Of a stretch of DNA of 64,000 nt, positions 17,921 through 50,712 are shown in pieces. This DNA is from Phyllobates terribilis (taxonomy: Eukaryota): the NCBI RefSeq assembly GCF_046119375.1, contig NW_027362765.1, positions 352,532,001 through 352,596,000 on the forward strand. The letters run 5' to 3'. The notes under the pieces were generated by a model. That model made no database searches and was not told the DNA's origin. It saw nothing but the letters and a program-made list of their open reading frames with translations. Position 1 is the stretch's first letter. Each line of letters opens with the position of its first letter. The translations under genes and the position numbers were made by a program.

Positions 17921-18009
17921 TTGGTGCCGATAATACATAAAGCGGCCCACTGAGACTCTTTTCCCCAGGGTCCATGAACACCTGGAGCCGGCCCTGGGGT
18001 CATGTCCAG

Positions 18010-19894: not shown

Positions 19895-20593
19895 ACACAG
19901 TACCACCTCTGCTGTATATATACACCGCACAGTACCACCTCTGCTGTATATATACACCGCACAGTACCACCTCTGCTGTATATATACACTGCACAGTACT
20001 ACCTCTGCTGTATATATACACCGCACAGTACCACCTCTGCTGTATATATACACCGCACAGTACCACCTCTGCTGTATATATACACCGCACAGTACCACCT
20101 CTGCTGTATATATACACCGCACAGTACCACCTCTGCTGTATATATACACCGCACAGTACCACCTCTGCTGTATATATACACCGCACAGTACCACCTCTGC
20201 TGTATATATACACCGCACAGTACCACCTCTGCTGTATATATACACCGCACAGTACCCCTCCTCCTGTATATATACACCGCACAGTACCACCTCTGCTGTA
20301 TATATACACCGCACAGTACCACCTCTGCTGTATATATACACCGCACAGTACCCCTCCTCCTGTATATATACACCGCACAGTACCACCTCTGCTGTATATA
20401 TACACTGCACAGCACCACTCCATATATACTCTGCACAGTACACCACTCCATATATACACTCTACAGTACCACTCCATATATACACTGCACAGCACCACTC
20501 CATATATACACTGCACAGTACCACTCCATATATACACTGCACAGTACCACTCCATATATACACTGCACAGTACCACTCCATATATACACTGCA
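19895..20593 (-). repeat. Minisatellite A array, 3' flank of copy B
   Basis: Reverse-complement units; 26-bp short variant next to the element, then a CAGCAGAGGTGGTACTGTGCGGTG variant. Confidence 0.95.
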
Positions 20594-21445
20594 GGTCTTT
20601 TTTTTATTGATAGAATAAGTACAGTACATGACAGAACAATAATACATTACAGGACACCGAACATAAGAACAAAACAAGACGACAAATCACAGAAAATAGA
20701 AACAAAATAAATCCCCCCAGGAATATATATATATATACAAGAAATAACTATTATAAAACCTATAAAACCCCCGGCCCAGCTTCATTCATACTACTATATA
20801 CAATCCCACACAACACTCACACCGTCCTATATACACATAAAACACCGTCCTATATACAAGATTATATACAATAAAACACTAAACCTAATATAACGTATAT
20901 ACAACCGGGAACTAACACTAACCTACTGGTCCCACTGCCTGACCTTACAGTCACCCCCTTACCGCACCTCATTCACACCACAGAAAACCAAAAATAACAA
21001 TATATACAATAGTGACATGAACAATTTTAAACTTTTTTTTTTTTTTTTTTTTGTATATTTTGTAATTTTTTAATATATATATATAAAACACAGACCTACA
21101 CTAACTATCCCGCCACCCCTGATCCAGCTCTGGCCACAAAGTTCAGGATTACTCCGAGCTAGGATCAGGCCCCAAAGTTTTTCCCCAGGCGGGGCCTGGA
21201 CCAGGCCAGATCAGTCCTCTTATCACCGCTGATGAAGAACCCCCCCCCCAAATCCCCCACCCAACCTAACTAAAACCCCCCATTATACATTATATACAAT
21301 ATATACAGAACACAACCTACACACTCACCATCCAAGGCTCAAGTTCGATGCCGGCAAACCTTCTATCCAGGAGACAGAAATACAAAACAAAAATCTAGGG
21401 TGGAAAGACATCGGCCCACCACCAGGATATAGGAGTACTACCAGA

Positions 21446-24400
21446 CTAAGGCACCCTGAAGGAAAAGCCCCTCCAGAGACGGGCCGCCCTCCGGGCACCC
21501 AGTCCTTCATACTCCAGAGAACGTACCTTCACCAGGTCACCTAGGATGTTCCTACAGACTTCATCTACATGGAGGATTTTACTCTGCGTCGAGACTAAAA
21601 CTCGTGCGTTCCACGTGAAATACCTCACTACTGCGCTGACTATGAATAAAGTGTCTCGGTCCCTTCTCCCAAGGTCTCCGAACGCTCCATAGGCCCACCC
21701 GGCGTAGGACAGAGTAGTCAGCCGCGGCCAACCAATGGAAGCCCCACCCTGTTGTACACCTCTGTATTAAAGGGACAATGAAGCAGGAAGTGCTCCATGC
21801 TTTCCAGCACGTTAGCACAAGCCTCACGGGGGCAATTCCTGTCCTCGGAGCTCCTGTACTTCAAATTGTCCCTCACATACAGCTTACCATGGAAGCAGCG
21901 CCAAGTCAAGTCCCAGTACTTCTCGGGGATCCTGCTAGAATTTAACAAACTCAACCCAACCTCCAGATCCCAACTTGGGCAGTCTTTGAGGGCCAATGGA
22001 CTCTGAAAATGAGAAAGCAAGACCCTCATATCGAGGAGTTTCCTCGGGAGGGACCTCACCTCCCACATTCCCAGACCCCACCGGCGGATCATTTTCAGAA
22101 CCGGGGTAACATAAGCCGGGAGATGCCCGTGTGGTGTGCGGAGATCCTTCACTCTTCCCCCTGTCTCCCATTCCTGGAAGAAAGGCTGAAACCATCCCTT
22201 GCAGGAGAATACCCACGGAGGAGCCCTCTCTTTCCAGAGGTTTGCCACATTCACTTTCAAGAAGGTGTTCACTAGGAACACCACGGGGTTCACCATATTC
22301 AAACCCCCTAGTCTCCTCGTGCGGTAAGTGACCTCCCGCTTGACTAGGTTCAGTCTGTTCCCCCATAACATCTGGAAGAACAGACTGTAGACCCATGTCC
22401 AGAGAGGCTCTGGCAAGACACAGACGCTGCCCAGGTAGATTAGCAAGGGGAGCAGGAAAGCTTTGCACAGGCCAACCCTTTCCCTCAGGGTCAAAGACCA
22501 ACCCCTCCATTGGTCCACTCTTTGGGCGACACCTTTGATTCTGCCTTCCCAGTTTTTCGTGGGGTAATCACCCTGGCCGAATTCGATGCCCAGGACTTTG
22601 GCATGTTCTTGGGGTTCGGGGAGGGTGTCCGGAAGATCAAACCCGGGATCTCCGCCTCCCAGCCAGAGACTCTCACACTTATCCTCGTTGACCTTGGACC
22701 CGGATGCCTCCGAGTAGCGCTCCACTTCTGACATCACCGCTGCTGCCTCCTCTTGCGAAGAAACAAAGACGGTGACATCGTCCGCGTAGGCCACCACCCT
22801 CAGGGTAGCCTCCGGCGCCGCCCCGCCCATCCGCACCCCCGCCAACGGTCCACAATCGATCCTTCTGAGGAAGGGATCGATCGCAAACGCGTAAAGCAAA
22901 GGGCTAAGAGGACAGCCCTGACGGACACCGGATCCTACCCCAAAAGGTCGTCCAATCCACCCATTCACCAGAGGGAAAGTCTCAGCCCCTGCATACAAGG
23001 TCTTAAGCCAGTCCACAAACCCTCCAGGCAGACCATACCTCAAAAGAGTGGACCAGAGGTACTCGTGGTTAACCCGATCAAAGGCTTTTGCCTGATCCAG
23101 GGTCAGCAAGAACCCCTTCCAGAGGCCCGCCCTGCCTTGCTCCACGGCCTCTCGGACACCTAGAACAGCACTAAAAGTGCTACGGCCAGGAACGCAACAG
23201 TGCTGAACCTCCGAAAGGAGCCGGGGTGCAAACTTCACCAGCCTGTTGAAAAGTATCTTAGCCAAAATCTTCCTGTCCACATTGAGAAGTGCTATGGGAC
23301 GCCAGTTCTCAATGCGTGACGGATCCTTACCCTTTGACAAAATGATCAAAGCTGACCTCCTTAATGATCTCGGCAGAGTGCCCGAGGAGAGACACTCGTT
23401 AAACACCTGAGTCAAGAGGGGGACCAAAGAGTCCCTAAAGGTCCTAAAGAACTCGGATGTTAAGCCATCCGGACCTGGCGACTTTTTGGGCCTAAGCCCA
23501 TCGATCGCCAGTCTCACTTCCTCTTCTTTGATCGCTTCTGCCAAATCGCCCAGCGAGAGGTCAGCCCCTGGCTCAGGAACGGATTCAGCCAGGAAAGCCG
23601 ACATCCCGTCACGATCAAGCTCCCTCCTTCCCAAGAGGTGCGAGTAGTAGGAACTGACGACCTCCAAGATCCCTGATCTGGACCTTCTCAGGGACCCCGT
23701 ACTGTCCACCAGCCCCGTCACTATCTTACTATTCACTGACATCTTACAGTTTCTGTAAGGGTCGGGCGAGCAGTACTTTCCGTAGTCCCTCTCGAAAACC
23801 AAAGATGCGTGCCTATCGTACTGACACCTCTTCAGCAAGGACTTCACTCTGGAGATCTCCTCGCGGCTACCTCCAGTCGAGACAAGATGCTCGAGTTTCC
23901 TCCTCAGGCTCTGATACAGGCGATCACTGTTCAGGCTTCTGAGGTTCGAGAGCTGCCGGAAGAATCTCGCCACCCGATGTTTGAACATCTCCCACCACTC
24001 TGACTTAGTGTTACTTAGGCCCAGCAATGGTACCTGGCTCTGAAAGAATTCCTCAAAATACCGTCTCACAGCTTCTTCCTCAATGAGTGACGAATTCAGC
24101 TTCCAATAGCCTCTTCCCATCCGAGGAGTCTCTGTAACATTCAGAGAAAACATAATCAAACAGTGATCGGAGAACTCCACCTCCACAACCGACAACGGTG
24201 AAGAGACGGCCTCCTCCTTCAAATAAAACCTATCTAGCCTAGACCTGCACTGACTACCTCTAAAAAAGGTGAATCCCGTGTCGCCCAGGTTGTGCCGGAT
24301 GTGGACATCCACCAGGCGAGCCTCACTCACTATCCTGTTTAACGCGACGCAGTCATAAGCCAGCCGGTCTCCGGAACCTCCTCTATCACAGGATCTCGTG

Positions 24401-24849
24401 ACATTGTTGAAATCCCCTCCGAAGACCACCTGCCGACTCGAAAATAAAAAAGGTTTGATCTTCAGGAAGAGACATTTGCGGTCCCACTTGGACTGGGAAC
24501 CATAGATGTTAATGAGCCGAAGCTCTTGTCCCCCCATGGAGACATCTAGGATCAAGCATCTCCCCATTTCTAATTCGATCACTCGTCTGCATTCAACCGC
24601 TGCGGTCTTAAAAAGGACCGCCACCCCGCTATACGGCTCGGCCGCAAGAGACCAGTAGGAGGGCCCATGCCTCCACTCCCGCCTTGCTTTATGCAAGGTT
24701 GATATATCGGTCAACCTGGTCTCCTGCAAAAACAAAATGTCGGCGTCAAGTTGGCCGAGAAAATGAAAGGCCGTGTACCTTGCCGCATCTGACTTTATGC
24801 TGCAAACATTAATAGTTGCCAGCGTCAACGGGGTGGGTGCCGCCATCAT
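21446..24849 (-). pseudogene. ORF2 of copy B (APE-RT-CCHC) with a 1-bp frameshift near the C-terminus
   Basis: APE motifs TINVCSIK, LQET, GGDFN, SRLDRF and SDH; RT YADD; GGTGGGGC (4 G) near 21743 versus GGTGGGGGC (5 G) in the other copies truncates the ORF at 1043 aa. This could be a homopolymer sequencing error. Confidence 0.85.
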
Positions 24850-24860
24850 GATTGATTGAA

Positions 24861-27800
24861 TTAGATAGCCTTTTTCTTCCCACCACTGACAGTCCCAACC
24901 TCTTCCTCCGATAATGACGAGTTTTTAGTGCGCTTAAGACAAACAGACTCATCCATTCTCTCCTTACATACATTCTTGCCCTCGTCTGGTGGTCCTGGGT
25001 TAGTCGTCCCCCCAGAGGGCTTTGTATTTGCCCCCCGAGAGGAAGACCCAGCCATCTCCTGAGCCCCAACCACCTTGTCCGCAACCTCCGGCCCCGGGTC
25101 CCCACTTCCCCCCTCCAGAGGGAGGTCCTGGAGAGCCCCGAACCGGTTGGAGAGATCCACCAGAGGGGGGGCGGCTGAACCCTCCAATGGCGCTTGGATC
25201 ACGGCCAGAGAGTCAGAGGGGTCGCACTCCAAAGAGGCAGCTCGAGACCTGGTCCCCCTCCTACCTCTGGCCGTTTTTCTGTTACCCTTTTTCTTTTTCT
25301 GTGACCACTCCCCCTCTCCCTCATCTAGACTGTCTCCAGAAGAGGGTTCCTGGGAAGACGTGGCGTCCTCTCGCTCTTCCCTTTCAAGTCTCTTGACTTC
25401 CTCGCTCAATTCGCTGTCTTTAGGATCTTCAGCTGCAAGTGAAGTACCTGGGTCAGAGTTTAGGGACATTACTCCCTGCCCCCTGTCCCCACGGCGCTTC
25501 TCCTGCCGCCTGATGGTGGATGGCGGCAGCTTGCTCCTCGCCGGTTCCCTGCCTCCCCCGCCCCTACTGGTCCCTTTACCGGCAAGATTAGTTCCAGCTT
25601 TCGCCTGTCCCGCACTCGCCGCTTTCAGGACCGCATTGGCAAAGGAACGCGGACAGCGACTGAACGGGTGACCGAGGTCACCACACAAGTTACACCTAAT
25701 CCTGCGACAGGCAGCAGCAAGATGACCGAGGTCCCCACACAGTGCGCATTTCTGGGTGGTACACTGCGCACTGAAGTGTGTAGGACTACCGCACCTGTGA
25801 CAGACCTTAGGCTGCCCCCGGTAGAAAATCAAGATCCTATCCCTCCCCAAAAAGGTTGAGGAGGGGATATGGGTAACAGTGTTTCCCGAAACCTTCAATC
25901 TCACCATGAAGGTCCAGGCCCCTGACCAGATACCATGGTCATCCAGATTCTTTTCGGGAATATTGGTGACCTCTCCGTATCGACTCACCCAGGTGGTAAT
26001 GTCCATACAGGAAAGCGACTCGTTACTAGTCAAAACGGTCACTTTCCTGACTGAATCTTGGCGGGTTATTGCCAGGGGAAAGAGACCATGCCATTCGGGG
26101 CGACTCCGAGCCAGCTCATGGCGAGACCAGAAAAGCTCAAGGCCCTCCGGTCTCACGAAGCTGACATCGAAGTAGGAGGTCCCGTAGGGATGGATCAAGG
26201 CAAAGATGTCATATGCCGCAAAGCCCATCCCCAGCAGGAGCTCAACCACCTTCGACCTATCAGGACAGGCATCCTTGCTTACCCACTGGAGACGGACCAC
26301 GTTCCTACGGTTATTCCTCTGCCCCGTTGTCGGCAGAGACCAGACAGTCTCTGCCCCTCTATCTCGGAAGGCTGAAAGACCATGTCTCTCTATCCAGAAA
26401 GACAGATCAACCTCCCTCCCCTCTACAGTGATGGAGCTCTCCCTTCTCCTCAGGGCGTCCAGGAGCTGCTGTTGCAAGTCACCATCCCCAGGGCCACCAG
26501 ACGAGGGCGCACTACTACCCCCAGCACTGACAGCTCCTGAATAGCTTTGGGCTGAAGCCCCCGCCAATCCTGGGGGGGCAGCGGGACCAGCACCTACTTC
26601 CCCCCCACCAACACCAGTGCTGCTCCCACCATTCACTCCAGTACTAGTCACATCATTCGCAGGACCATTACTCCCATCGTTCACTCCACTACTACTCACA
26701 CCATTCGCAGGACCATTACTCCCATCATTCATTACACCACTACCCCCAACATTTGCTGCACCACAACTCCCATCATTCCCACAACTCCCAGAATTCATTC
26801 CACCACTACCCCCACCATTTGCTACATCATCATTCACTGCACCACTACCCCCACCATTTGCTGCATCATCATTCACTGTACCACTAATTCCACCATTCCT
26901 ACTACTCTCATCATCTGCTCCACCATTACTGTCACCATCTGCTCCACCATTACTCCCATCATTCACTGCACCACTATTTCCATTCCCTTTACTTGTCACC
27001 CCATTACCTCTGCTGTTCTCTGCACCTTCCACAGTCACCTCCATTCCTTCCTCCCTTGTGTCTGGTGTCTCTGCACTCACACCTGCTGGGCCGGGGGAGG
27101 GGAGCACTCCCAGAGACTCCTTTCCCTGCAGCACCACACCCGTTTCCCTTTGGTTGCTGCTGGCTTTCTGCAGGTCGTCTCCTGGAGCGCCCCGCCCCCC
27201 TACTGCAGCATTTTGGTCCTTGTTCTGGCCAGACTGTTTTATCAGCACCTCTGCCCGCCCTGCACCCACAGACTTTGGGGTCTTAGTGTCCTTTTTGGGC
27301 GCTGGGGCACACTGCCCCCCTGTCGCAGCAGTGTGCCCAGTGTTCTTTGCTGATGTGTTTTTCACATCCTTTCCTGCCCCCCCAGTCCCGGTGATAACCG
27401 GCTTAGCCGCAGAGGGCAGGGTGGGAAACTCCACAGAACTTCCTATGTCCGGCGCTGTGAGTACCTCCACAGCCTCGCCCCCTGCACTGTTCCCCGCACA
27501 GATGGCAGCATCGCCGGACGTCCTCCTCCTCTCCCCACCTTGCCTCTGCCTCGAGCCCACTGCAGAGCCCGTGCCTTTAGGCTTGGTGGGGTTTAAACAG
27601 AAGGTGGCAGGCGCAACATCAGACATTGGTACATACTTGTAACTCACCACCTCCTGTGCAGCTCCTCCGGTCTTCCTCTTCCTCCTCTTGGTCTCCTCCA
27701 CTGGTTTGTCCTCACCGAAGGAAAACCGCGTCAGGTCCACTGGAGACTCCAGCAGTCGGATCTCCCTCAGCAGTCCTCCTTCCTCCTCCTCCCCCGACAC

Positions 27801-28457
27801 TCCAGCCTCTGCTGTCGGAGTCCTCTGCCCTGCAGGGAGACCACTGGAACTCCGGCTCTGCCCCTCACTGGCTCCAGCAACTGAGACTCCAGTCACCTCT
27901 TCATCCTCCTCCTCCTCTTCACTAAGGACGCCGGCTGGCGGTTCTCCTGAGGTGTTTAACCCCTTCATTTCTGAGAACCGCCGCTGGTTCTTAAACCTCT
28001 CCAGGAAGGGACCTGCACTTTTCTCAATCCCCTCCCGGAGGAGCACTAACCTGACCACCTCGTCTCTGAGGGCTTTAAACCTCTGGGAGGTCGCGGGTCT
28101 CTCCTTGTTGGACGCCCGGGTGTTCAGGACCCGGGCCTCCCTCAGCTCCTCTTTCAGCTGGGTTAGTGCTTTGCCGGCGTCCTCGTACTCTCGCAACGTG
28201 GCGACCACTCGGGAGGAGAAGGAACTTGTGGACTCGCTGGAGCTCATCTGCCCCCAGGATCTTACTGGGCTCTTGTTCCTGGGGCCTGGGGTGCCCCGGT
28301 CTCCCTCTCTGGGCTGGCGGTGAACAGTCTTGGGGTTGGAGCAGGTGGATGTACTCTTCCTCACCCTTCCCGATCTCCTCACTCCCTCCTGGGCCGGTTG
28401 TTGAGGCTCCTTCTCCCTCGCCGGCATAGACCGGGGGATAGGAGGCTGGGAAGCCAT
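24861..28457 (-). CDS. ORF1 of copy B (1198 aa), intact: coiled-coil/acidic N-terminus, G/N/S-rich region, RRM-like region, three CCHC knuckles
   Basis: Open ATG-to-TAA; knuckles CHRCGSPTHFSAQC, CALCGDLGHLAAAC and CNLCGDLGHPFSRC; lies directly upstream of ORF2. Confidence 0.92.
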   Translation of the reverse strand: MASQPPIPRSMPAREKEPQQPAQEGVRRSGRVRKSTSTCSNPKTVHRQPREGDRGTPGPRNKSPVRSWGQMSSSESTSSFSSRVVATLREYEDAGKALTQLKEELREARVLNTRASNKERPATSQRFKALRDEVVRLVLLREGIEKSAGPFLERFKNQRRFSEMKGLNTSGEPPAGVLSEEEEEDEEVTGVSVAGASEGQSRSSSGLPAGQRTPTAEAGVSGEEEEGGLLREIRLLESPVDLTRFSFGEDKPVEETKRRKRKTGGAAQEVVSYKYVPMSDVAPATFCLNPTKPKGTGSAVGSRQRQGGERRRTSGDAAICAGNSAGGEAVEVLTAPDIGSSVEFPTLPSAAKPVITGTGGAGKDVKNTSAKNTGHTAATGGQCAPAPKKDTKTPKSVGAGRAEVLIKQSGQNKDQNAAVGGRGAPGDDLQKASSNQRETGVVLQGKESLGVLPSPGPAGVSAETPDTREEGMEVTVEGAENSRGNGVTSKGNGNSGAVNDGSNGGADGDSNGGADDESSRNGGISGTVNDDAANGGGSGAVNDDVANGGGSGGMNSGSCGNDGSCGAANVGGSGVMNDGSNGPANGVSSSGVNDGSNGPANDVTSTGVNGGSSTGVGGGEVGAGPAAPPGLAGASAQSYSGAVSAGGSSAPSSGGPGDGDLQQQLLDALRRRESSITVEGREVDLSFWIERHGLSAFRDRGAETVWSLPTTGQRNNRRNVVRLQWVSKDACPDRSKVVELLLGMGFAAYDIFALIHPYGTSYFDVSFVRPEGLELFWSRHELARSRPEWHGLFPLAITRQDSVRKVTVLTSNESLSCMDITTWVSRYGEVTNIPEKNLDDHGIWSGAWTFMVRLKVSGNTVTHIPSSTFLGRDRILIFYRGQPKVCHRCGSPTHFSAQCTTQKCALCGDLGHLAAACRRIRCNLCGDLGHPFSRCPRSFANAVLKAASAGQAKAGTNLAGKGTSRGGGGREPARSKLPPSTIRRQEKRRGDRGQGVMSLNSDPGTSLAAEDPKDSELSEEVKRLEREEREDATSSQEPSSGDSLDEGEGEWSQKKKKGNRKTARGRRGTRSRAASLECDPSDSLAVIQAPLEGSAAPPLVDLSNRFGALQDLPLEGGSGDPGPEVADKVVGAQEMAGSSSRGANTKPSGGTTNPGPPDEGKNVCKERMDESVCLKRTKNSSLSEEEVGTVSGGKKKAI

Positions 28458-28556
28458 GCGTGCCTCCCAGTAGGCCTGCCTCTCCCTGGGGAGAAGAGAG
28501 GCAGACGACGACCCTCCTCCTGGAAGTGCTTGAGCTCAGGAGGCAGGTGCTACTCT

Positions 28557-31155: not shown

Positions 31156-31491
31156 CCAGTAATTTGTTGCACAGATTCAGATCATAGAGGAAAAAAAAGT
31201 CTTTAACAAAACTGAAGTAAAGAATCCTGTGTAAATATTCAGTGCGAGGACGAGACGACAGATCTGTGGAAATATCTGCAGCTCAATGTGTTTTACAGAT
31301 TCTCGCTGAAATCCCACCTGGAGTCTCGCAGCGACTGATTAAATGCTATTAGGAGCACAGTAAAAATCCCGCTAGGAAGGAACGTCTCACAGGAGAGGAG
31401 AGGTGAAAAGAAAACGCAACGTCTTAATGTTTTCACAGAAATAATGAGAATCATGATAATATAATATTACCGAAAAATGCTGAGAAAAGCA

Positions 31492-32081: not shown

Positions 32082-32180
32082 AGAGTAGCACCTGCCTCCT
32101 GAGCTCAAGCACTTCCAGGAGGAGGGTCGTCGTCTGCCTCTCTTCTCCCCAGGGAGAGGCAGGCCTACTGGGAGGCCGGC

Positions 32181-35828: not shown

Positions 35829-35839
35829 TTCAATCAATC

Positions 35840-39244: not shown

Positions 39245-40067
39245 TCCGGTAGTACTCCTATATCCTGGTGGTGGGCTGATGTCTTTTCTCCCTAGATTTT
39301 TGTTTTGTATTTCTGTCTCCTGGATAGAAGGTTTGCCGGCATTGAACTTGAGCCTTGGATGGTGAGTGTGTAGGTTGTGTTCTGTATATATTGTATATAA
39401 TGTATAATAGGGGTTTTTAGTTAGGTTGGGTGGGGGATTTGGGGGGGTTCTTCATCAGCGGTGATAAGAGGACTGATCTGGCCTGGTCCAGGCCCCGCCT
39501 GGGGAAAAACTTTGGGGCCTGATCCTAGCTCGGAGTAATCCTGAACTTTGTGGCCAGAGCTGGATCAGGGGTGGCGGGATAGTTAGTGTAGGGCTGTGTT
39601 TTATATATATATTAAAAATTACAAAATATACAAAAAAAAAAAAAAAAAAAAGGTTTAAAATTGTCCATGTCACTATTGTATATCTTGTTATTTTTGGTTT
39701 TCTGTGGTGTGAATGAGGTGCGGTAAGGGGGTGACTGTAAGGTCAGGCAGTGGGACCAGTAGGTTAGTGTTAGTGTCCGGTTGTATATACGGTATATTAG
39801 GTTTAGTGTTTTATTGTATATAATCTTGTATATAGGACGGTGTTTTATGTGTATATAGGACGGTGTGAGTGTTGTGTGGGATTGTATATAGTAGTATGAA
39901 TGAAGCTGGGCCGGGGGTTTTATAGGTTTTATAATAGTTATTTCTTGTATATATATATATATATTCCTGGGGGGATTTATTTTGTTTCTATTTTCTGTGA
40001 TTTGTCGTCTTGTTTTGTTCTTATGTTCGGTGTCCTGTAATGTATTATTGTTCTGTCATGTACTGTA

Positions 40068-40571
40068 TATATACAGGAGGAGTGGTACTGTGCAGTGTAT
40101 ATATGGAGTGGTACTGTGCAGTGTATATATGGAGTGGTACTGTGCAGTGTATATATACAGGACAGGAGGAGTGGTACTGTGCAGTGTATATATACAAGAC
40201 AAGGGAGAAGTGGTACTGTGCAGTGTATATATAGAGGAGGAGTGGTACTGTGCAGTGTATATATACAGGACAGGAGCAGTGGTACTGTGCAGTGTATATA
40301 TACAGGACAGGAGGAGTGGTACTGTGCAGTGTATATATACAGGAGGAGTGGTACTGTGCAGTGTATATATAGAGGAGGAGTGGTACTGTGCAGTGTATAT
40401 ATACAGGACAGGAGAAGTGGTACTGTGCAGTGTATATATACAGGACTGGAGGAGTAGTACTGTGCAGTGTATATATACAGGACAGGAGAAGTGGTACTGT
40501 GCAGTATATATACAGGACAGGAGGAGTGGTACTGTGCAGTGTACACACACAGGACAGGAGGAGTGGTGCTG
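40068..40571 (+). repeat. Minisatellite A spacer between tandem copies C and D
   Basis: About 15 units; begins with 26-bp short variants and ends with the TACACACAC junction unit. Confidence 0.95.
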
Positions 40572-40670
40572 AGAGTAGCACCTGCCTCCTGAGCTCAAGC
40601 ACTTCCAGGAGGAGGGTCGTCGTCTGCCTCTCTTCTCCCCAGGGAGAGGCAGGCCTACTGGGAGGCCGGC

Positions 40671-43600
40671 ATGGCTTCCCAGCCTCCTATTCCCCGGTCT
40701 ATGCCGACCTGGGAGAAGGAGCCTCAACAACCGGCCCAGGAGGGAGTGAGGAGATCGGGAAGGGTGAGGAAGAACACATCCACCTGCTCCAACCCCGAGA
40801 CTGTTCACCGCCAGCCCAGAGAGGGAGACCAGGGCACCCCAGGCCCCAGGAACAAGAGCCCAGCAAGATCCTGGGGGGAGATGAGCTCCAGCGAGTCCAC
40901 AAGTTCCTTCTCCTCCCGAGTGGTCACCACGTTGCGAGAGTACGAGGACGCCGGCAAAGCACTAACCCAGCTGAAAGAGGAGCTGAGGGAGGCCCGGGTC
41001 CTGAACACCCGGGCGTCCAACAAGGAGAGACCCGCGACCTCCCAGAGGTTTAAAGCCCTCAGAGACGAGGTGGTCAGGTTAGTGCTCCTCCGGGAGGGGA
41101 TTGAGAAAAGCGCAGGTCCCTTCCTGGAGAGGTTTAAGAACCAGCGGCGGTTCTCAGAAATGAAGGTGTTAAACACCTCAGGAGAACCGCCAGCCGGCGT
41201 CCTTAGTGAAGAGGAGGAGGAGGATGAAGAGGTGACTGGAGTCTCAGTTGCTGGAGCCAGTGAGGGGCAGAGCCAGAGCTCAAGTGGTCTCCCTGCAGGG
41301 CAGAGGACTCCGACAGCAGAGGCTGGAGTGTCGGGGGAGGAGGAGGAAGGAGGACTGCTGAGGGAGATCCGACTGCTGGAGTCACCAGTGGACCTGACGC
41401 GGTTTTCCTTCGGTGAGGACAAACCAGTGGAGGAGACCAAGAGGAGGAAGAGGAAGACCGGAGGAGCTGCACAGGAGGTGGTGAGTTACAAGTATGTACC
41501 AATGTCTGATGTTGAGCCTGCCACCTCCTGTGTAAACCCCACCAAACCTAAAGGCACGGGCTCTGCAGTGGGCTCGAGGCAGAGGCAAGGTGGGGAGAGG
41601 AGGAGGACGTCCGGCGATGCTGCCATCTGTGCGGGGAACAGTGCAGGGGGCGAGGCTGTGGAGGTACTCACAGCGCCGGACATAGGAAGTTCTGTGGAGT
41701 TTCCCACCCTGCCCTCTGCGGCTAAGCCGGTTATCACCGGGGCCGGGGGGGCAGGGAAGGATGTGAAAAACACATCTGCAAAGAACACTGGGCACACTGC
41801 TGCGACAGGGGGGCAGTGTGCCCCAGCGCCCAAAAAGGACACTAAGACCCCAAATTCTGTGGGTGCAGGGCGGGCAGAGGTGCCGAGAAAACAGTCTGGC
41901 CAGAACAAGGACCAAAATGGTGCAGTAGAGGGGCGGGGCGCTCCAGCAGACGACCTGCAGAAAGCCAGCAGCAACCAAAGGGAAACGGGTGTGGTGCTGC
42001 AGGGAAAGGAGTCTCTGGGAGTGCTCCCCTCCCCCGGCCCAGCAGGTGTGAGTGCAGAGACACCAGACACAAGGGAGGAAGGAATGGAGGTGACTGTGGA
42101 AGGTGCAGAGAACAGCAGAGGTAATGGGGTGACAAGTAAAGGGAATGGAAATAGTGGTGCAGTGAATGATGGGAGTAATGGTGGAGCAGATGGTGGGAGT
42201 AATGGTGGAGCAAATGGTGAGAGTAGTAGGAATGGTGGAAGTAGTGGTACAGTGAATGATGATGCAGCAAATGGTGGGGGTAGTGGTGCAGTGAATGATG
42301 ATGCAGCAAATGGTGGGGGTAGTGGTGGAATGAATGGTGGGAGTAGTGGTGTAGCAAATGTTGGGGGTAGTGGTGTACTGAATGGTGGGAGTAGTGATGC
42401 AGCAAATGGTGGGAGAAGTAGTGGAGTGAATGATGGGAGTAATGGTCCTGCGAATGGTGTGAGTAGTAGTGGAGTGAATGGTGGGAGCAGCACTGGTGTT
42501 GGTGGGGGGGAAGTAGGCGCTGGTCCCGCTGCCCCCCCAGCATTGGCAGGGGATTCAGCCCAAAGCTATTCAGGAGCTGTCAGTGCTGGGGGTAGTCGTG
42601 CGCCCTCGTCTGGTGGCCCTGGGGATGGTGACTTGCAACAGCAGCTCCTGGACGCCCTGAGGAGAGGGGAGGGAGGTTGATCTGTCTTTCTGGATAGAGA
42701 GACATGGTCTTTCAGCCTTCCGAGATAGAGGGGCAGAGACTGTCTGGTCTCTGCCGACAACGGGGCAGAGGAGGGTAAGCAGTGAGTAAGCAAGGATGCC
42801 TGTCCTGATAGGTCGAAGGTGGTTGAGCTCCTGCTGGGGATGGGCTTTGCGGCATATGACATCTTTGCCTTGATCCATCCCTACGGGACCTCCTACTTCG
42901 ATGTCAGCTTCGTGAGACCGGAGGGCCTTGAGCTTCTCTGGTCTCGCCATGAGCTGGCTCGGAGTCGCCCTGAATGGCATGGTCTCTTTCCCCTGGCAAT
43001 AACCCGCCAAGATTCAGTCAGGAAAGTGACCGTTTTGACTAGTAACGAGTCGCTTTCCTGTATGGACATTACCACCTGGGTGAGTAGATACGGAGAGGTC
43101 ACCAATATTCCCGAAAAGAATCTGGATGACCATGGTATCTGGTCAGGGGCCTGGACCTTCATGGTGAGATTGAAGGTTTCGGGAAACACTGTTACCCATA
43201 TCCCCTCCTCAACCTTTTTGGGGAGGGATAGGATCTTGATTTTCTACCGGGGGCAGCCTAAGGTCTGTCACAGGTGCGGTAGCCCCACACACTTCAGTGC
43301 GCAGTGTACCACCCAGAAATGCGCACTGTGTGGGGACCTCGGTCATCTTGCTGCTGCCTGTCGCAGGATTAGGTGTAACTTGTGTGGTGACCTCGGTCAC
43401 CCGTTCAGTCGCTGTCCGCGTTCCTTCGCCAATGCGGTCCTGAAATCGGCGAGTGCGGGACAGGCGAAAGCTGGAACTAATCTTGCCGGTGAAGGGACCA
43501 GTAGGGGCGGGGGAGGCAGGGAACCGGTGAGGAGCAAGCTGCCGCCATCCACCATCAGGCGGCAGCAGAAGCGCCGTGGGGACAGGGGGCAGGGAGTAAT

Positions 43601-44207
43601 GTCCCTAAACTCTGACCCAGGTACTTCACTTGCAGCTGAGGATCCTAAAGACAGTGAATTGAGCGAGGAAGTCAAGAGACTTGAAAGGGAAGAGCGAGAG
43701 GACGCCACGTCTTCCCAGGAACCCTCTTCTGGTGACAGTCTAGATGAGGGAGAGGGGGAGTGGTCACAGAAAAAGAAAAAGGGTAACAGGAAAACGGCCA
43801 GAGGTAGGAGGGGGACCAGGTCTCGAGCTGCCTCTTTGGAGTGCGACCCCTCTGACTCTCTGGCCATGATCCAAGCGCCATTGGAGGGTTCAGCCGCCCC
43901 CCCTCTGGTGGATCTCTCCAACCGGTTCGGGGCTCTCCAGGACCTCCCTCTGGAGGGGGGAAGTGGGGACCCGGGGCCGGAGGTTGCGGACAAGGTCGTT
44001 GGGGCTCAGGAGATGGCTGGGTCTTCCTCTCGGGGGGCAAATACAAAGCCCTCTGGGGGGATGACTAACCCAGGACCACCAGACGAGGGCAAGAATCTAT
44101 GTAAGGAGAGAATGGATGAATCTGTTTGTCTTAAGCGCACTAAAAACCCGTCATTATCAGAGGAAGAGGTTGGGACTGTCAGTGGTGGGAAGAAAAAGGC
44201 TATCTAA
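40671..44207 (+). pseudogene. ORF1 of copy D, broken by two small deletions and stop codons
   Basis: 23-bp deletion near 42669, a 25-to-6-bp replacement near 42774, TGA at 42678 and 42783. Confidence 0.9.
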
Positions 44208-44218
44208 TTCAATCAATC

Positions 44219-47200
44219 ATGATGGCGGCACCCACCCCGTTGACGCTGGCAACTATTAATGTTTGCAGCATAAAGTCAGATGCGGCAAGGTACACGGCCT
44301 TTCATTTTCTCGGCCAACTTGACGCCGACATTTTGTTTTTGCAGGAGACCAGGTTGACCGATATATCAACCTTGCATAAAGCAAGGCGGGAGTGGAGGCA
44401 TGGGCCCTCCTACTGGTCTCTTGCGGCCGAGCCGTATAGCGGGGTGGCGGTCCTTTTTAAGACCGCAGCGGTTGAATGCAGACGAGTGATCGAATTAGAA
44501 ATGGGGAGATGCTTGATCCTAGATGTCTCCATGGGGGGACAAGAGCTTCGGCTCATTAACATCTATGGTTCCCAGTCCAAGTGGGACCGCAAATGTCTCT
44601 TCCTGAAGATCAAACCTTTTTTATTTTCGAGTCGGCAGGTGGTCTTCGGAGGGGATTTCAACAATGTCACGAGATCCTGTGATAGAGGAGGTTCCGGAGA
44701 CCGGCTGGCTTATGACTGCGTCGCGTTAAACAGGATAGTGAGTGAGGCTCGCCTGGTGGATGTCCACATCCGGCACAACCTGGGCGACACGGGATTCACC
44801 TTTTTTAGAGGTAGTCAGTGCAGGTCTAGGCTAGATAGGTTTTATTTGAAGGAGGAGGCCGTCTCTTCGCCGTTGTCGGTTGTGGAGGTGGAGTTCTCCG
44901 ATCACTGTTTGATTTTGTTTTCCCTGAATGTTACAGAGACTCCTCGGATGGGAAGAGGCTATTGGAAGCTGAATTCATCACTCCTTGAGGAAGAAGCTGT
45001 AAGACGGTCTTTTGAGGAATTCTTTCAGAGCCAGGTACCATTGCTGGGCCTAAGTAACACTAAGTCGGAGTGGTGGGAGATGTTCAAACATCGGGTGGCG
45101 AGATTCTTCCGGCAGCTCTCGAACCTCAGAAGCCTGAACAGGGATCGCCTGTATCAGAGCCTGAGGAGGAAACTCGAGCATCTTGTCTCGACTGGAGGTA
45201 GCCGCGAGGAGATCTCCAGAGTGAAGTCCTTGCTGAAGAGGTGTCAGTACGATAGGCACGCATCTTTGGTTTTCGAGAGGGACTACGGGAAGTACTGCTC
45301 GCCCGACCCTTACAGAAACTGTAAGATGTCAGTGAATAGTAAGATAGTGACGGGGCTGGTGGACAGTACGGGGTCCCTGAGAAGGTCCAGATCAGGGATC
45401 TTGGAGGTTGTCAGTTCCTACTACTCGCACCTCTTGGGAAGGAGGGAGCTTGATCGTGACGGGATGTCGGCTTTCCTGGCTGAATCTGTTCCTGAGCCAG
45501 GGGCTGACCTCTCGCTGGGCGATTTGGCAGAAGCGATCAAAGAAGAGGAAGTGAGACTGGCGATCGATGGGCTTAGGCCCAAAAAGTCGCCAGGTCCGGA
45601 TGGCTTAACATCCGAGTTCTTTAGGACCTTTAGGGACTCTTTGGTCCCCCTCTTGACTCAGGTGTTTAACGAGTGTCTCTCCTCGGGCACTCTGCCGAGA
45701 TCATTAAGGAGGTCAGCTTTGATCATTTTGTCAAAGGGTAAGGATCCGTCACGCATTGAGAACTGGCGTCCCATAGCACTTCTCAATGTGGACAGGAAGA
45801 TTTTGGCTAAGATACTTTTCAACAGGCTGGTGAAGTTTGCACCCCGGCTCCTTTCGGAGGTTCAGCACTGTTGCGTTCCTGGCCGTAGCACTTTTAGTGC
45901 TGTTCTAGGTGTCCGAGAGGCCGTGGAGCAAGGCAGGGCGGGCCTCTGGAAGGGGTTCTTGCTGACCCTGGATCAGGCAAAAGCCTTTGATCGGGTTAAC
46001 CACGAGTACCTCTGGTCCACTCTTTTGAGGTATGGTCTGCCTGGAGGGTTTGTGGACTGGCTTAAGACCTTGTATGCAGGGGCTGAGACTTTCCCTCTGG
46101 TGAATGGGTGGATTGGACGACCTTTTGGGGTAGGATCCGGTGTCCGTCAGGGCTGTCCTCTTAGCCCTTTGCTTTACGCGTTTGCGATCGATCCCTTCCT
46201 CAGAAGGATCGATTGTAGACCGTTGGCGGGGGTGCGGATGGGCGGGGCGGCGCCGGAGACTATCCTGAGGGTGGTGGCCTACGCGGACGATGTCACCGTC
46301 TTTGTTTCTTCGCAAGAGGAGGCAGCAGCGGTGATGTCAGAAGTGGAGCGCTACTCGGAGGCATCCGGGTCCAAGGTCAGCCAGGATAAGTGTGAGAGTC
46401 TCTGGCTGGGAGGCGGAGATCCCGGGTTTGATCTTCCGGACACCCTCCCCGAACCCCAAGAACATGCCAAAGTCCTGGGCATCGAATTCGGCCAGGGTGA
46501 TTACCCCACGAAAAACTGGGAAGGCAGAATCAAAGGTGTCGCCCAAAGAGTGGACCAATGGAGGGGTTGGTCTTTGACCCTGAGGGAAAGGGTTGGCCTG
46601 TGCAAAGCTTTCCTGCTCCCCTTGCTAATCTACCTGGGCAGCGTCTGTGTCTTGCCAGAGCCTCTCTGGACACGGGTCTACAGTCTGTTCTTCCAGATGT
46701 TATGGGGGAACAGACTGAACCTAGTCAAGCGGGAGGTCACTTACCGCACGAGGAGACTAGGGGGTTTGAATATGGTGAACCCCGTGGTGTTCCTAGTGAA
46801 CACTTTCTTGAAAGTGAACGTGGCAAACCTCTGGAAAGAGAGGGCTCCTCCGTGGGTATTCTCCTGCAAGGGATGGTTTCAGCCTTTCTTCCAGGAATGG
46901 GAGACAGGGGGAAGATTGAAGGATCTTCGCACACCACACGGGCATCTCCCGGCTTATGTTACCCCGGTTCTGAAAATGATCCGCCGGTGGGGTCTGGGAA
47001 TGTGGGAGGTGAGGTCCCTCCCGAGGAAACTCCTCGATATGAGGGTCTTGCTTTCTCATTTTCAGAGTCCATTGGCCCTCAAAGACTGCCCAAGTCGGGA
47101 TCTGGAGGTTGGGTTGAGTTTGTTAAATTCTACCAGGATCCCCGAGAAGTACTGGGACTTGACTTGGCGCTGCTTCCATGGTAAGCTGTATGTGAGGGAC

Positions 47201-47623
47201 AATTTGAAGTACAGGAGCTCCGAGGACAGGAATTGCCCCCGTGAGGCTTGTGCTAACGTGCTGGAAAGCATGGAGCACTTCCTGCTTCATTGTCCCTTTA
47301 ATACAGAGGTGTACAACAGGGTGGGGGCTTCCATTGGTTGGCCGCGGCTGGCTACTCTGTCCTACGCCGGGTGGGCCTATGGAGCGTTCGGAGACCTTGG
47401 GAGAAGGGACCGAGACACTTTATTCATAGTCAGCGCAGTGGTCAGGTATTTCACGTGGAACGCACGAGTTTTAGTCTCGACGCAGAGTAAAATCCTCCAT
47501 GTAGATGAAGTCTGTAGGAACATCCTAGGTGACCTGGTGAAGGTACGTTCTCTGGAGTATGAAGGACTGGGTGCCTGGAGGGCGGCCCGTCTCTGGAGGG
47601 GCTTTTCCTTCAGGGTGCCTTAG
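44219..47623 (+). CDS. ORF2 of copy D, intact 1134-aa APE-RT-CCHC
   Basis: Full open frame with all motifs, near-identical to copy C. Confidence 0.95.
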   Translation: MMAAPTPLTLATINVCSIKSDAARYTAFHFLGQLDADILFLQETRLTDISTLHKARREWRHGPSYWSLAAEPYSGVAVLFKTAAVECRRVIELEMGRCLILDVSMGGQELRLINIYGSQSKWDRKCLFLKIKPFLFSSRQVVFGGDFNNVTRSCDRGGSGDRLAYDCVALNRIVSEARLVDVHIRHNLGDTGFTFFRGSQCRSRLDRFYLKEEAVSSPLSVVEVEFSDHCLILFSLNVTETPRMGRGYWKLNSSLLEEEAVRRSFEEFFQSQVPLLGLSNTKSEWWEMFKHRVARFFRQLSNLRSLNRDRLYQSLRRKLEHLVSTGGSREEISRVKSLLKRCQYDRHASLVFERDYGKYCSPDPYRNCKMSVNSKIVTGLVDSTGSLRRSRSGILEVVSSYYSHLLGRRELDRDGMSAFLAESVPEPGADLSLGDLAEAIKEEEVRLAIDGLRPKKSPGPDGLTSEFFRTFRDSLVPLLTQVFNECLSSGTLPRSLRRSALIILSKGKDPSRIENWRPIALLNVDRKILAKILFNRLVKFAPRLLSEVQHCCVPGRSTFSAVLGVREAVEQGRAGLWKGFLLTLDQAKAFDRVNHEYLWSTLLRYGLPGGFVDWLKTLYAGAETFPLVNGWIGRPFGVGSGVRQGCPLSPLLYAFAIDPFLRRIDCRPLAGVRMGGAAPETILRVVAYADDVTVFVSSQEEAAAVMSEVERYSEASGSKVSQDKCESLWLGGGDPGFDLPDTLPEPQEHAKVLGIEFGQGDYPTKNWEGRIKGVAQRVDQWRGWSLTLRERVGLCKAFLLPLLIYLGSVCVLPEPLWTRVYSLFFQMLWGNRLNLVKREVTYRTRRLGGLNMVNPVVFLVNTFLKVNVANLWKERAPPWVFSCKGWFQPFFQEWETGGRLKDLRTPHGHLPAYVTPVLKMIRRWGLGMWEVRSLPRKLLDMRVLLSHFQSPLALKDCPSRDLEVGLSLLNSTRIPEKYWDLTWRCFHGKLYVRDNLKYRSSEDRNCPREACANVLESMEHFLLHCPFNTEVYNRVGASIGWPRLATLSYAGWAYGAFGDLGRRDRDTLFIVSAVVRYFTWNARVLVSTQSKILHVDEVCRNILGDLVKVRSLEYEGLGAWRAARLWRGFSFRVP

Positions 47624-48471
47624 TCCGGTAGTACTCCTATATCCTGGTGGTGGGCTGATGTCTTTCCACCCTAGATTTTTGTTTTGTATTTCTGTCTCCT
47701 GAATAGAAGGTTTGCCGGCATCGAACTTGAGCCTTGGATGGTGAGTGTGTAGGTTGTGTTCTGTATATATTGTATATAATGTATAATAGGGGGTTTTAGT
47801 TAGGTTGGGTGGGGGATTTGGGGGGGTTTTCATCAGCGGTGATAAGAGGACTGATCTGGCCTGGTCCAGGCCCCGCCTGGGGAAAAACTTTGGGGCCTGA
47901 TCCTAGCTCGGAGTAATCCTGAACTTTGTGGCCAGAGCTGGATCAGGGGTGGCGGGATAGTTAGTGTAGGTCTGTGTTTTATATATATATTAAAAAATTA
48001 CAAAATAAAAAAAAAATACAAAAAAAAAAAAAAGGTTTAAAATTGTTCATGTCACTATTGTATATATTGTTATTTTTGGTTTTCTGTGGTGTGAATGAGG
48101 TGCGGTAAGGGGGTGACTAAGGTCAGGCAGTGGGACCAGTAGGTTAGTGTTAGTTCCCGGTTGTATATACGTTATATTAGGTTTAGTGTTTTATTGTATA
48201 TAATCTTGTATATAGGACGGTGTTTTATGTGTATATAGGACGGTGTGAGTGTTGTGTGGGATTGTATATAGTAGTATGAATGAAGCTGGGCCGGGGGTTT
48301 TATAGGTTTTATAATAGTTATTTCCTGTATATATATATATATTCCTGGGGGGATTTATTTTGTTTCTATTTTCTGTGATTTGTCGTCTTGTTTTGTTCTT
48401 ATGTTCGGTGTCCTGTAATGTATTATTGTTCTGTCATGTACTGTACTTATTCTATCAATAAAAAAAAGACC

Positions 48472-50712
48472 TGCAGTGTATATATGGAGTGGTGCTGTGC
48501 AGTGTATATATACAGGAGGAGTGGTACTGTGCAGTGTATATATACAGGAGCGGTGGTACTGTGCAGTGTATATATACAGGAGGAGTGGTACTGTGCAGTG
48601 TATATATACAGGAGCGGTGGTACTGTGCAGTGTATATATACAGGAGGAGTGGTACTGTGCAGTGTATATATACAGGAGGAGTGGTACTGTGCGGTGTATA
48701 TATACAGGAGGAGTGGTACTGTGCAGTGTATATATACAGGAGCGGTGGTACTGTGCAGTGTATATATACAGGAGGAGTGGTACTGTGCGGTGTATATATA
48801 CAGGAGCGGTGGTACTGTGCAGTGTATATATACAGGAGCGGTGGTACTGTGCAGTGTATATATACAGGAGGAGTGGTACTGTGCAGTGTATATATACAGG
48901 AGGAGTGGTACTGTGCGGTGTATATATACAGGAGGAGTGGTACTGTGCAGTGTATATATACAGGAGCGGTGGTACTGTGCAGTGTATATATACAGGAGGA
49001 GTGGTACTGTGCGGTGTATATATACAGGAGGTGTGGTACTGTGCAGTGTATATATACAGGAGGAGTGGTACTGTGCAGTGTATATATACAGGAGAAGTGG
49101 TACTGTGCAGTGTATATATACAGGACAGGAGGAGTGGTACAGTGCAGTGTATATATACAGGAGCGGTGGTACTGTGCAGTGTATATATACAGGAGGAGTG
49201 GTACTGTGCGGTGTATATATACAGGAGGTGTGGTACTGTGCAGTGTATATATACAGGAGGAGTGGTACTGTGCAGTGTATATATACAGGAGAAGTGGTAC
49301 TGTGCAGTGTATATATACAGGAGGAGCGGTACTGTGCAGTGTATATATACAGGACAGGAGGAGTGGTACAGTGCAGTGTATATATACAGGAGAAGTGGTG
49401 CTGTGCAGTGTATATATACAGGACAGGAGGAGTGGTACTGTGCAGTGTATATATACAGGAGGAGTGGTACTGTGCAGTGTATATATACATTAGGAGTGGT
49501 ACTGTGCAGTGTATATATACAGGAGGAGTGGTACTGTGCAGTGTATATATACAGGAGAAGTGGTACTGTGCAGTGTATATATACAGGAGGAGCGGTACTG
49601 TGCAGTGTATATATACAGGACAGGAGGAGTGGTACAGTGCAGTGTATATATACAGGAGGTGTGGTACTGTGCAGTGTATATATACAGGAGGAGTGGTACT
49701 GTGCAGTGTATATATACAGGAGAAGTGGTACTGTGCAGTGTATATATACAGGAGGAGCGGTACTGTGCGGTGTATATATACAGGACAGGAGGAGTGGTAC
49801 AGTGCAGTGTATATATACAGGAGGAGTGGTACTGTGCAGTGTATATATACAGGAGAAGTGGTACTGTGCAGTGTATATATACAGGAGCGGTGGTACTGTG
49901 CAGTGTATATATACAGGAGGAGCTGTACTGTGCAGTGTATATATACAGGAGGAGCTGTACTGTGCAGTGTATATATACAGGAGGAGCTGTACTGTGCAGT
50001 GTATATATACAGGAGGAGTGGTACTGTGCAGTGTATATATACAGGAGCGGTGGTACTGTGCAGTGTATATATACAGGAGGAGTGGTACTGTGCGGTGTAT
50101 ATATACAGGACAGGAGGAGTGGTACTGTGCAGTGTATATATACAGGAGCGGTGGTACTGTGCAGTGTATATATACAGGACAGGAGGAGTGGTACTGTGCA
50201 GTGTATATATACAGGAGCGGTGGTACTGTGCAGTGTATATATACAGGACAGGAGGAGTGGTACTGTGCAGTGTATATATACAGGAGGAGTGGTACTGTGC
50301 AGTGTATATATACAGGAGCGGTGGTACTGTGCAGTGTATATATACAGGAGGAGTGGTACTGTGCAGTGTATATATACAGGAGCGGTGGTACTGTGCAGTG
50401 TATATATACAGGAGGAGTGGTACTGTGCAGTGTATATATACAGGAGGAGTGGTACTGTGCGGTGTATATATACAGGAGGAGTGGTACTGTGCAGTGTATA
50501 TATACAGGAGGAGTGGTACTGTGTGGTGTATATATACAGGAGGAGCTGTACTGTGCAGTGTATATATACAGGACAGGAGGAGTGGTACTGTGCAGTGTAT
50601 ATATACAGGAGGAGTGGTACTGTGCGGTGTATATATACAGGAGGAGTGGTACTGTGCAGTGTATATATACAGGAGGAGTGGTACTGTGTGGTGTATATAT
50701 ACAGGAGGAGCT
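48472..50712 (+). repeat. Minisatellite A array, 3' flank of copy D
   Basis: About 68 units; array-enriched CAGGAGCGGTGG variant. Confidence 0.97.

What the first reader, a model, noticed from the sequence alone, without database searches (positions are those of the whole stretch)
20400..48500. Element-specific repeat variants at both ends suggest the retroelement carries, and may seed, its own target array
Seen: the unit just 5' of B, C and D always has TA(T/C)ACACACAGGACAGGAGGAGTGGTGCTG, an ACACAC variant I did not see elsewhere in the arrays. A 26-bp short unit (TGTATATATGGAGTGGTACTGTGCAG) appears only just 3' of B, C and D. The outer flanks of the different arrays share no sequence, so no common carrier element is apparent. 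Inference: terminal repeat units are part of the RNA template (read-through at both ends, homology-assisted priming and 5' joining). Each insertion would then add target units, a self-reinforcing loop between retroelement and satellite.
Basis: partly seen in the sequence, partly recalled or inferred. Interest (0 to 1): 0.72.

Follow-up and report, generated by a model that had tools for sequence, protein, structure and literature searches.

The report
Retrotransposon ends track its minisatellite target
A frog jumping gene carries one copy of its target repeat at its front end and sometimes a few at its back end, too few to build the repeat arrays, while a sister lineage with a nearly identical cutting enzyme but different ends lands in a different repeat, so pairing between the element's RNA ends and the DNA likely helps choose where it inserts.

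Summary
B, C and D are copies of an ~8-kb Tx1-like LINE (about 530 3' ends genome-wide) inserted at GTACTG|TGCAG in a 32/37-bp minisatellite. The 5' claim holds: about 130 of 170 ACACAC units sit at 5' junctions (27,613 plain units), and in 16 of 19 arrays of another unit type exactly one foreign 37-bp unit precedes the element. But only 58 of 98 copies have ACACAC, and C and D share one duplicated junction. The 26-bp unit is not element-specific: 148 of 156 lie in two arrays 2.6-3.6 Mb away; B, C and D probably got short tracts by 3' read-through. The 3' end is a templated A8-GACC, not poly(A). Seeding is not supported: most arrays lack elements and off-target copies bring no unit. New: a sister lineage with no fixed ORF2 amino-acid difference but its own cap and tail inserts into a 36-fold rarer 61-bp repeat; 401 of 406 tails of one type continue TGCA, 99 of 100 listed of the other TACA. 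Target choice thus tracks the ends, likely through RNA-DNA pairing, with ORF1 or unfixed ORF2 residues as rivals. No earlier scan note covered this.

The parts
1..3479 (+). Element A, 3' part (5' part lies left of the window); short-form 3' end lacking the A8-GACC tail
3480..3504 (+). Fixed partial 32-bp-type unit that ends all short-form copies
   Evidence: 19 of 19 sampled short forms; 124 copies
3478..6539 (+). 32/37-bp minisatellite array 3' of A
19896..20409 (-). Local array 3' of B (CAGCAGAGG-type units)
20410..20593 (-). Seven 26/28-bp units 3' of B, with three rare variants otherwise seen in the C5:349.9 Mb array; likely 3' transduction
20594..28556 (-). Element B, long form ending A8-GACC; ORF1 1224-aa frame (28457-24861), ORF2 broken by a frameshift near its end
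28557..28593 (-). Element-borne 37-bp 5' unit (cap) of B, TATACACAC type
28594..31157 (-). Array 5' of B
31503..32044 (+). Array 5' of C; its last ~400 bp recur before D
32045..32081 (+). 37-bp cap of C, TACACACAC type
32082..40065 (+). Element C, short form, both ORFs open; chimera of D's 5' ~1 kb and an A-type 3' part
40066..40142 (+). Short-form partial unit plus two 26-bp units 3' of C
40132..40571 (+). Near-identical copy of C's 5' flank (31641-32081), ending in D's cap (40535-40571)
40572..48471 (+). Element D, long form; ORF1 frameshifted; ORF2 44219-47623 (APE endonuclease, RT, zf-RVT)
48472..48497 (+). Single 26-bp unit 3' of D, same as the first unit after the four C5:349.9 Mb elements
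48498..50732 (+). Local array 3' of D (GAGCGGTGG-type units)

Best explanation
This is a Tx1-like non-LTR retrotransposon that inserts at one fixed point of a 32/37-bp minisatellite, carries one marked unit of that repeat at its 5' end and at times extra units at its 3' end, and likely uses these target-like RNA ends to prime and finish each insertion and probably to choose between repeats. Shown in DNA: the cut point (GTACTG|TGCAG), 14-19-bp target-site duplications in truncated copies, a templated A8-GACC 3' end, one foreign unit at the 5' junction, occasional foreign tracts of 1-10 units at the 3' junction, and a sister lineage with no fixed ORF2 difference whose own cap and tail go with a 61-bp repeat. 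Inferred: transcription starts near the start of the last upstream unit and reads past GACC into the array; the endonuclease nicks before TRCA; the read-through RNA pairs with the nicked strand, so priming is usually at the first unit boundary and sometimes at a later one; the cDNA's cap pairs with the 14-19-nt target overhang, so the C/T markers inside that heteroduplex are kept or lost, giving the graded variants. Net gain is probably about one unit per full-length insertion: real, but small against the arrays, which exist and spread without the element.
For: Cap: G at -4 in 95 of 98 copies, 37-bp type in 88 of 89 parsed last units, markers at background from unit -2 outward; one foreign unit after 26-, 31-, 32-, 39-, 40- and 74-bp local units in 16 of 19; where the first 3' unit has a variant in its first 11 nt the cap keeps the template form (e.g. 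L249, L238, L256, L217); the GGCG cap variant is linked to internal site 203, p=4e-5. 3' end; short form ends in a 32-type partial unit in 19 of 19 against 7 of 43 first units of long forms, and in L279 the local unit type resumes right after it. TSDs of 14-19 bp in six truncated 61-type copies and 17 bp in two 37-type copies. B and D are identical at all 552 compared sites of their last ~650 nt (median 7.5 differences to others) and both carry 26-bp tails. Sister lineage: 66 caps, 30 of 30 followed by the element; 107 tails, 103 TRCA, 99 of 100 listed TACA; 37-type tails 401 of 406 TGCA, 1 TACA; 61-mer 759 units against 27,613; no fixed difference in 1135 ORF2 codons, EN distance 2.45% between and 2.57% within the 61-type; hairpin loop identical in 71 of 82 and 12 of 14, and L358 (both ORFs open, in a 61-mer array) differs from the 37-type majority EN only by S118P, also found in 23 of 91 37-type copies. 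Off-target copies start TACA (12 of 12 fetched 61-type, chosen as TRCA) or TGCAG (L389). Precedent: PMC3774820, PMC6530143, PMC6795142 (passages).
Against: No transcript data. The family is heavily recombined (r2 falls from 0.25 under 50 bp to about 0.07 by 150 bp; 60-80% of non-CpG site pairs fail the four-gamete test), so DNA-level conversion could also move junction sequences and could have blurred ORF2 after insertion. The source of B and D is not any of the four C5:349.9 Mb copies as assembled (6-8 differences), B's first unit differs from D's by one base, and L257 is not close to L256 internally. A systematic search for shared 3' flanks between distant copies found only neighbours. ORF1's N-terminus has near-fixed differences (E15D, C39Y, F286S) and ORF2 has skewed ones (R162Q 13 of 19 vs 0 of 91; A953V 14 of 16 vs 0 of 87). 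Several off-target 61-type copies are only 79-89% like the reference tail, so may be an older lineage whose ORF2 was not seen. Without empty alleles, addition of the cap unit cannot be told from replacement of a local unit; in 3 of 19 no foreign unit appears.
Confidence: 0.66

Rival explanations
1. Proteins choose the target (a few ORF2 residues such as R162Q or A953V, or the ORF1 N-terminus that steers the particle to a chromatin site); cap and tail only hitch-hike, and gene flow has blurred ORF2 in the copies.
For: Near-fixed ORF1 differences and skewed ORF2 sites; R162 lies in a loop next to the residue aligned with L1 R155 (PMC1950540 passages); endonuclease swaps move specificity between SART1 and TRAS1 (PMC7265360 passages); mosaicism is strong.
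Against: No ORF2 residue is fixed; 6 of 19 61-type copies have R162, and its codon change is a CpG transition; two synonymous markers (3303, 4880) are more fixed than any ORF2 residue; ORF1 localisation would not explain TACA versus TGCA at off-target sites in unique DNA.
Confidence: 0.35
2. Junction variants and foreign 3' tracts were moved by ectopic gene conversion or unequal exchange between DNA copies, whose flanking repeats are homologous, not by RNA read-through.
For: C is a chimera that shares D's 5' flank; linkage decays within 150 bp; the 26-bp tails occur only within 4 Mb on C5.
Against: Exactly one foreign unit at 5' in 16 of 16 such cases but 0-10 at 3' is not what variable conversion tracts give; truncated copies with clean TSDs in unique DNA, which must be primary insertions, also end A-run-GACC; 124 short-form copies on many chromosomes share one partial unit. 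It may still explain C and part of the 26-bp tails.
Confidence: 0.2
3. One reading: the element founds and feeds its own arrays in a self-reinforcing loop.
For: One unit likely gained per insertion and up to 10 more at times; the ACACAC marker has spread to 13 places in one array next to an element cluster on C6; L205 has five cap-like units against unique DNA.
Against: 9 of 10 array loci in the first 165 Mb of C1 lack an element end; 0 of 12 off-target 61-type and 0 of 3 off-target 37-type 3' ends (L101, L389, L390) carry a unit; no sampled full-length copy has one unit or fewer on both sides; some arrays sit in an older carrier repeat, 85-95% identical between copies; only 40 ACACAC units lie inside arrays.
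Confidence: 0.1

Closest known systems
Target-specific Tx1-clade LINEs (Tx1L in Tx1D, Keno in U2, Kibi/Koshi in microsatellites, Tx1-Mar, satellite-targeting families named in the Fig. 3 legend of PMC4494074; passages and section 15 read)
   Same: Two ORFs, APE endonuclease + RT + zf-RVT, CCHC ORF1, fixed insertion point in a multicopy target, tandem copies, TSDs.
   Different: Target is a 32/37-bp minisatellite; the element carries a whole marked unit at 5'; two lineages about 1% apart in ORF2 use different repeats. The passages read state that target choice is mainly set by the endonuclease.
R2 elements whose RNA keeps upstream 28S sequence (PMC3774820, passages)
   Same: Target-derived 5' sequence on the template, cDNA/target heteroduplex, inherited duplications of target sequence with substitutions, target-derived bases pairing with the element's own leader.
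   Different: R2 has an RLE endonuclease, one ORF and an HDV-like ribozyme that sets the 5' end; no ribozyme was detected here.
3' read-through priming in R2Ol and R1Bm, and 3' transduction in R7Ag, R1Bm and L1 (PMC6530143, PMC6795142, PMC7265360, passages; the R1Bm paper itself was not held)
   Same: Read-through target sequence at the RNA 3' end anneals to the nicked DNA and raises efficiency and accuracy; downstream sequence can be transduced.
   Different: There it improves insertion at an endonuclease-defined site; here the ends go with the choice between two repeats while ORF2 is shared.
SART1/TRAS1 telomeric-repeat LINEs (PMC7265360, passages)
   Same: APE-type LINEs in tandem repeats; short RNA-target annealing can set where reverse transcription starts.
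   Different: They end in poly(A) and their specificity moves with the endonuclease domain.

Membership tests
Non-LTR retrotransposon, L1/Tx1 group | ORF2 with APE endonuclease, RT and C-terminal zinc-binding domain; ORF1 with CCHC knuckles | tested here: met
   Pfam PF03372, PF00078, PF13966; PF23057, PF23058, PF00098; EN matches L1 EN structures, E 6e-10
Non-LTR retrotransposon, L1/Tx1 group | Marks of target-primed reverse transcription: 5' truncation, fixed 3' end, TSD | tested here: met
   TSDs of 14-19 bp in eight truncated copies
Tx1 clade | RT groups with named Tx1 families in a phylogeny | tested here: inconclusive
   Nearest relatives are unnamed frog proteins (Bufo 76%, Xenopus 57%); the only element-named hit among the 120 listed for the RT region is a zebrafish 'transposon TX1' protein at 35%; no tree with curated Tx1 and L1 references was built
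Tx1 clade | Target preference for a multicopy sequence (over 20% of flanks, criterion in PMC4494074) | tested here: met
   401 of 406 long tails continue TGCA; 98 of 99 5' ends abut this repeat family
R2-like 5' processing | HDV-like ribozyme that cleaves in upstream target sequence | tested here: not met
   No Rfam family at gathering score on 40500-40800; 0 hits of a simple HDV descriptor in 4 copies; a diverged ribozyme is not excluded
R2-like 5' processing | Inherited target-derived 5' sequence giving uniform junctions | tested here: met
R1Bm/R2Ol-type read-through priming | Template RNA extends into downstream target sequence | not testable with these tools
   Only DNA signs: templated A8-GACC, short form, foreign tracts
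Self-seeding repeat-retroelement system | Insertions in unique DNA found new arrays; arrays depend on the element | tested here: not met

The most novel reading that the evidence does not exclude
A vertebrate APE-type LINE retargets itself with RNA: one shared endonuclease/RT nicks before TRCA, and about 40 nt of target-derived sequence at each RNA end decide which minisatellite is used, so exchanging the ends switches the target without changing ORF2. The ACACAC marker may be self-selected because it destroys the TATA box of the last unit and so forces transcription to start one unit upstream, keeping the cap.
Probability: 0.4. Interest if true: 0.85.

Novelty: new variant of a known kind. 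Interest (0 to 1): 0.62.

Why it matters
Target choice of APE-type site-specific LINEs is held to be set mainly by the endonuclease (PMC4494074, PMC7265360, passages). Two young lineages that share ORF2 yet keep to different repeats give a natural pair for testing how much the RNA ends contribute, how a LINE changes target in evolution, and whether such an enzyme could be redirected by editing only its RNA ends. The marked cap also gives a readable record of the poorly understood 5' joining step. The idea that the element builds its satellite matters less: the effect is small.

Tried and rejected
Whole-element tree of 91 of 99 copies (those with at least 6000 aligned bases): star-like, not usable for source-daughter links because copies are mosaics. 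Systematic search for identical 3' flanks between copies: only neighbouring or duplicated pairs scored. Ribozyme at the 5' end: nothing in Rfam or by descriptor. Cap-leader hairpin: predicted at -24.2 kcal/mol, z -2.28, 5 of 200 shuffles as good; weak alone, and the GGCG and GTCG cap variants break pairs. 'TSD plus 26-nt cap' as the whole story: rejected because several caps do not copy variants of the first 3' unit. C5:349.9 Mb copies as direct parents of B and D: not matched. Earlier scan notes: 8 shown, none on this element. Literature searches found no description of this family or of end-linked target switching; the library lacks most subscription papers, including Kojima and Fujiwara 2004 and Anzai 2005, and Repbase was not available, so absence from print is not established. 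No supplements were read.
Full report
What the window holds. Four copies (A-D) of an ~8-kb element lie in arrays of a 32/37-bp minisatellite. ORF1 has ZCCHC3-type RNA-binding domains and CCHC knuckles; ORF2 has an APE endonuclease, RT and zf-RVT. Nearest ORF2 relatives are frog proteins (Bufo 76%, Xenopus 57%), so the host is taken to be a frog. The genome has 328 exact matches to the element's inner 5' 35-mer, 406 long-form and 124 short-form 3' ends. I fetched 99 full-length loci: 94 of the first 100 listed minus five, plus neighbours.

The 5' variant. The ACACAC unit is in the window as stated. Genome-wide there are 170 against 27,613 plain units; 40 continue into another unit, so about 130 are at junctions, as were 26 of the first 30 inspected. 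Among 98 copies chosen by internal sequence, 58 have ACACAC, 11 a single C, 29 a plain or other unit, and 95 have G four bases before AGAG; from the second unit outward these markers fall to background. The decisive cases are arrays made of other unit types. In 16 of 19 (five in 26-bp arrays, six of nine in 74-bp arrays, five others; L250 left out because its neighbour is already 37 bp) exactly one foreign 37-bp unit stands between the local units and the element; in three the local unit runs up to the element with only its last bases of element type. The cap is therefore carried by the element. C and D count once: they share ~440 bp of flank, and C is D-like for its first ~1 kb and A-like afterwards.

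The 26-bp unit. All 156 matches are accounted for: 119 and 29 throughout two arrays at C5:349.9 and 348.98 Mb, 7 in the window, 1 on C2. Only 6 of 406 long-form junctions begin with it: four in the 349.9 Mb array, B and D. It is a local variant, not an element end. Yet B's seven units include three rare variants found in that array and nowhere else in the window, and B and D are identical over their last ~650 nt (0 of 552 sites; median 7.5 to other copies), which points to one source in a 26-bp array. None of the four assembled copies there matches (6-8 differences). Comparable foreign tracts follow c348 (3 units) and L257 (10 units) before the local type resumes; 13 other informative copies restart with the local unit at once.

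The 3' end. It is not poly(A): the A run is 8 long in 49 and 9 long in 10 of 66 parsed ends (two mis-parsed) and is followed by GACC. The short form has lost this tail and ends in a fixed 32-bp-type partial unit in 19 of 19 sampled, against 7 of 43 first units after long forms. Truncated copies show TSDs of 14-19 bp that begin at the base after GACC (six 61-type; two 37-type). Inference: bottom-strand nick at GTACTG|TGCAG, priming on read-through RNA, top-strand cut 14-19 nt downstream, and pairing of the cDNA's cap with that overhang, which places the C/T markers in a heteroduplex and explains the graded variants. R2 offers the precedent for both ends (PMC3774820, PMC6530143, PMC6795142; passages read).

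Seeding and the loop. The first 100 plain units listed fall in 10 loci over 165 Mb of C1; nine have no element end, and six of them were checked by BLAST within 1.5 kb with no hit (output partly cut). Off-target copies bring no unit (0 of 12 61-type, 0 of 3 37-type). Nine of 59 distinct 5' outer flanks belong to one older interspersed repeat, although the window's flanks are unrelated. About 530 insertions adding one to two units each would give at most about 4% of the 27,613 exact plain units, itself a lower bound (inference). Feedback exists but is rare: 13 ACACAC units in one C6 array beside an element cluster; 11 of the first 30 non-junction units have element sequence within 1.5 kb.

A sister lineage. 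One of the 99 copies (L280) sits in a different, 61-bp repeat with a different cap. That cap occurs 66 times, followed by the element in 30 of 30 inspected; it is a diverged copy of the 61-mer around its cut site. Of 107 tails of this type 103 continue TRCA, 99 of 100 listed TACA, the one TGCA being a variant 61-mer. Of 406 37-type tails 401 continue TGCA and one enters a 61-mer. The 61-mer has 759 exact units, 36 times fewer, so the 61-type avoids the commoner repeat. The two cut sites share TRCARTSTAT. Twenty 61-type loci were fetched, 21 with L280. No amino acid is fixed between lineages in 1135 ORF2 codons; EN distance is 2.45% between and 2.57% within the 61-type; near-fixed differences lie in the cap, 5' UTR, ORF1 N-terminus and last ~130 nt. 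The loop that aligns with L1's specificity hairpin (PMC1950540 passages) is the same in 71 of 82 and 12 of 14 copies, and L358, with both ORFs open, differs from the 37-type majority EN only by S118P. Against this: R162Q (13 of 19 vs 0 of 91) and A953V (14 of 16 vs 0 of 87) are skewed, ORF1 differs, and recombination is strong enough to have blurred ORF2 after insertion. I put RNA-end choice slightly ahead of protein choice.

How the 5' end is set is not shown. No ribozyme was found. Both caps are predicted to pair with the element's first ~20 nt, and their departures from their targets strengthen the fold (-23.9 vs -20.5 and -24.0 vs -13.7 kcal/mol). Plain units contain a TATAWAWR match 30 nt before the next unit; 71 of 98 caps lack it while about 80% of upstream units have it. 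With the recalled ~30-nt TATA-to-start spacing this suggests, untested, that transcription starts from the penultimate unit's TATA and that ACACAC persists because it blocks a start that would lose the cap.

Verdict. Observation partly confirmed; interpretation partly supported. The parts are known from R2, R1 and Tx1 elements (PMC4494074 passages and section 15, PMC7265360 and PMC3747384 passages); the whole-unit cap and the end-linked split between two minisatellites with shared ORF2 were not found in the searches listed. New variant of a known kind; interest 0.62.

Noticed in passing
L280, L317-L366 (e.g. G000:C8:205129297, C4:806267099): Sister lineage of the element in a 61-bp minisatellite, with its own 5' cap and 3' tail and near-identical ORF2.
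   Followed up: yes
all fetched copies, window 40572-48471 as reference: The family is highly mosaic: linkage decays within about 150 bp; template switching or gene conversion not told apart.
   Followed up: partly
window 31641-32081 and 40132-40571: C looks like a chimera whose 5' flank and first ~1 kb were copied from D, duplicating 440 bp of array.
   Followed up: partly
L033, L043, L054, L070, L072, L151, L170, L173, L206 (5' arm); L109, L162, L170, L206, L209 (3' arm): An interspersed repeat with ~500-bp arms carries some arrays; its 3' arm ends in a sequence that resembles a hAT-type terminal repeat (resemblance recalled, not tested).
   Followed up: partly
L035, L037, L041, L057, L076, L108, L099, L151, L047, L255: Tc1-like and at least two LTR-like elements (labels recalled from their ends) repeatedly insert in the TATATA stretch of the same minisatellite.
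   Followed up: no
G000:C2:751.59-751.61 Mb (L113-L119): A ~450-bp truncated copy inserted in an 18-bp satellite that begins TGCAGTGTA and was then amplified seven times with it.
   Followed up: partly
run X8 laid on window 40567: A contig of another organism (organism D) joins the element's leader to a 61-type cap, so that cap may predate this species.
   Followed up: no
G000:C6:13.069-13.080 Mb: Thirteen ACACAC units spread through one array just downstream of an element cluster.
   Followed up: partly
window 6728-17936 and 55408-64000: At least ten other unrelated minisatellites (22-70 bp units) fill the rest of the window; Gypsy-like gag and protease frames on the minus strand at 52002-53174.
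   Followed up: no
window 28594-31157 (-) and 31503-32044 (+): The arrays before B and C point away from each other across a 345-bp spacer; similar inverted array pairs occur at L077 and L078.
   Followed up: no
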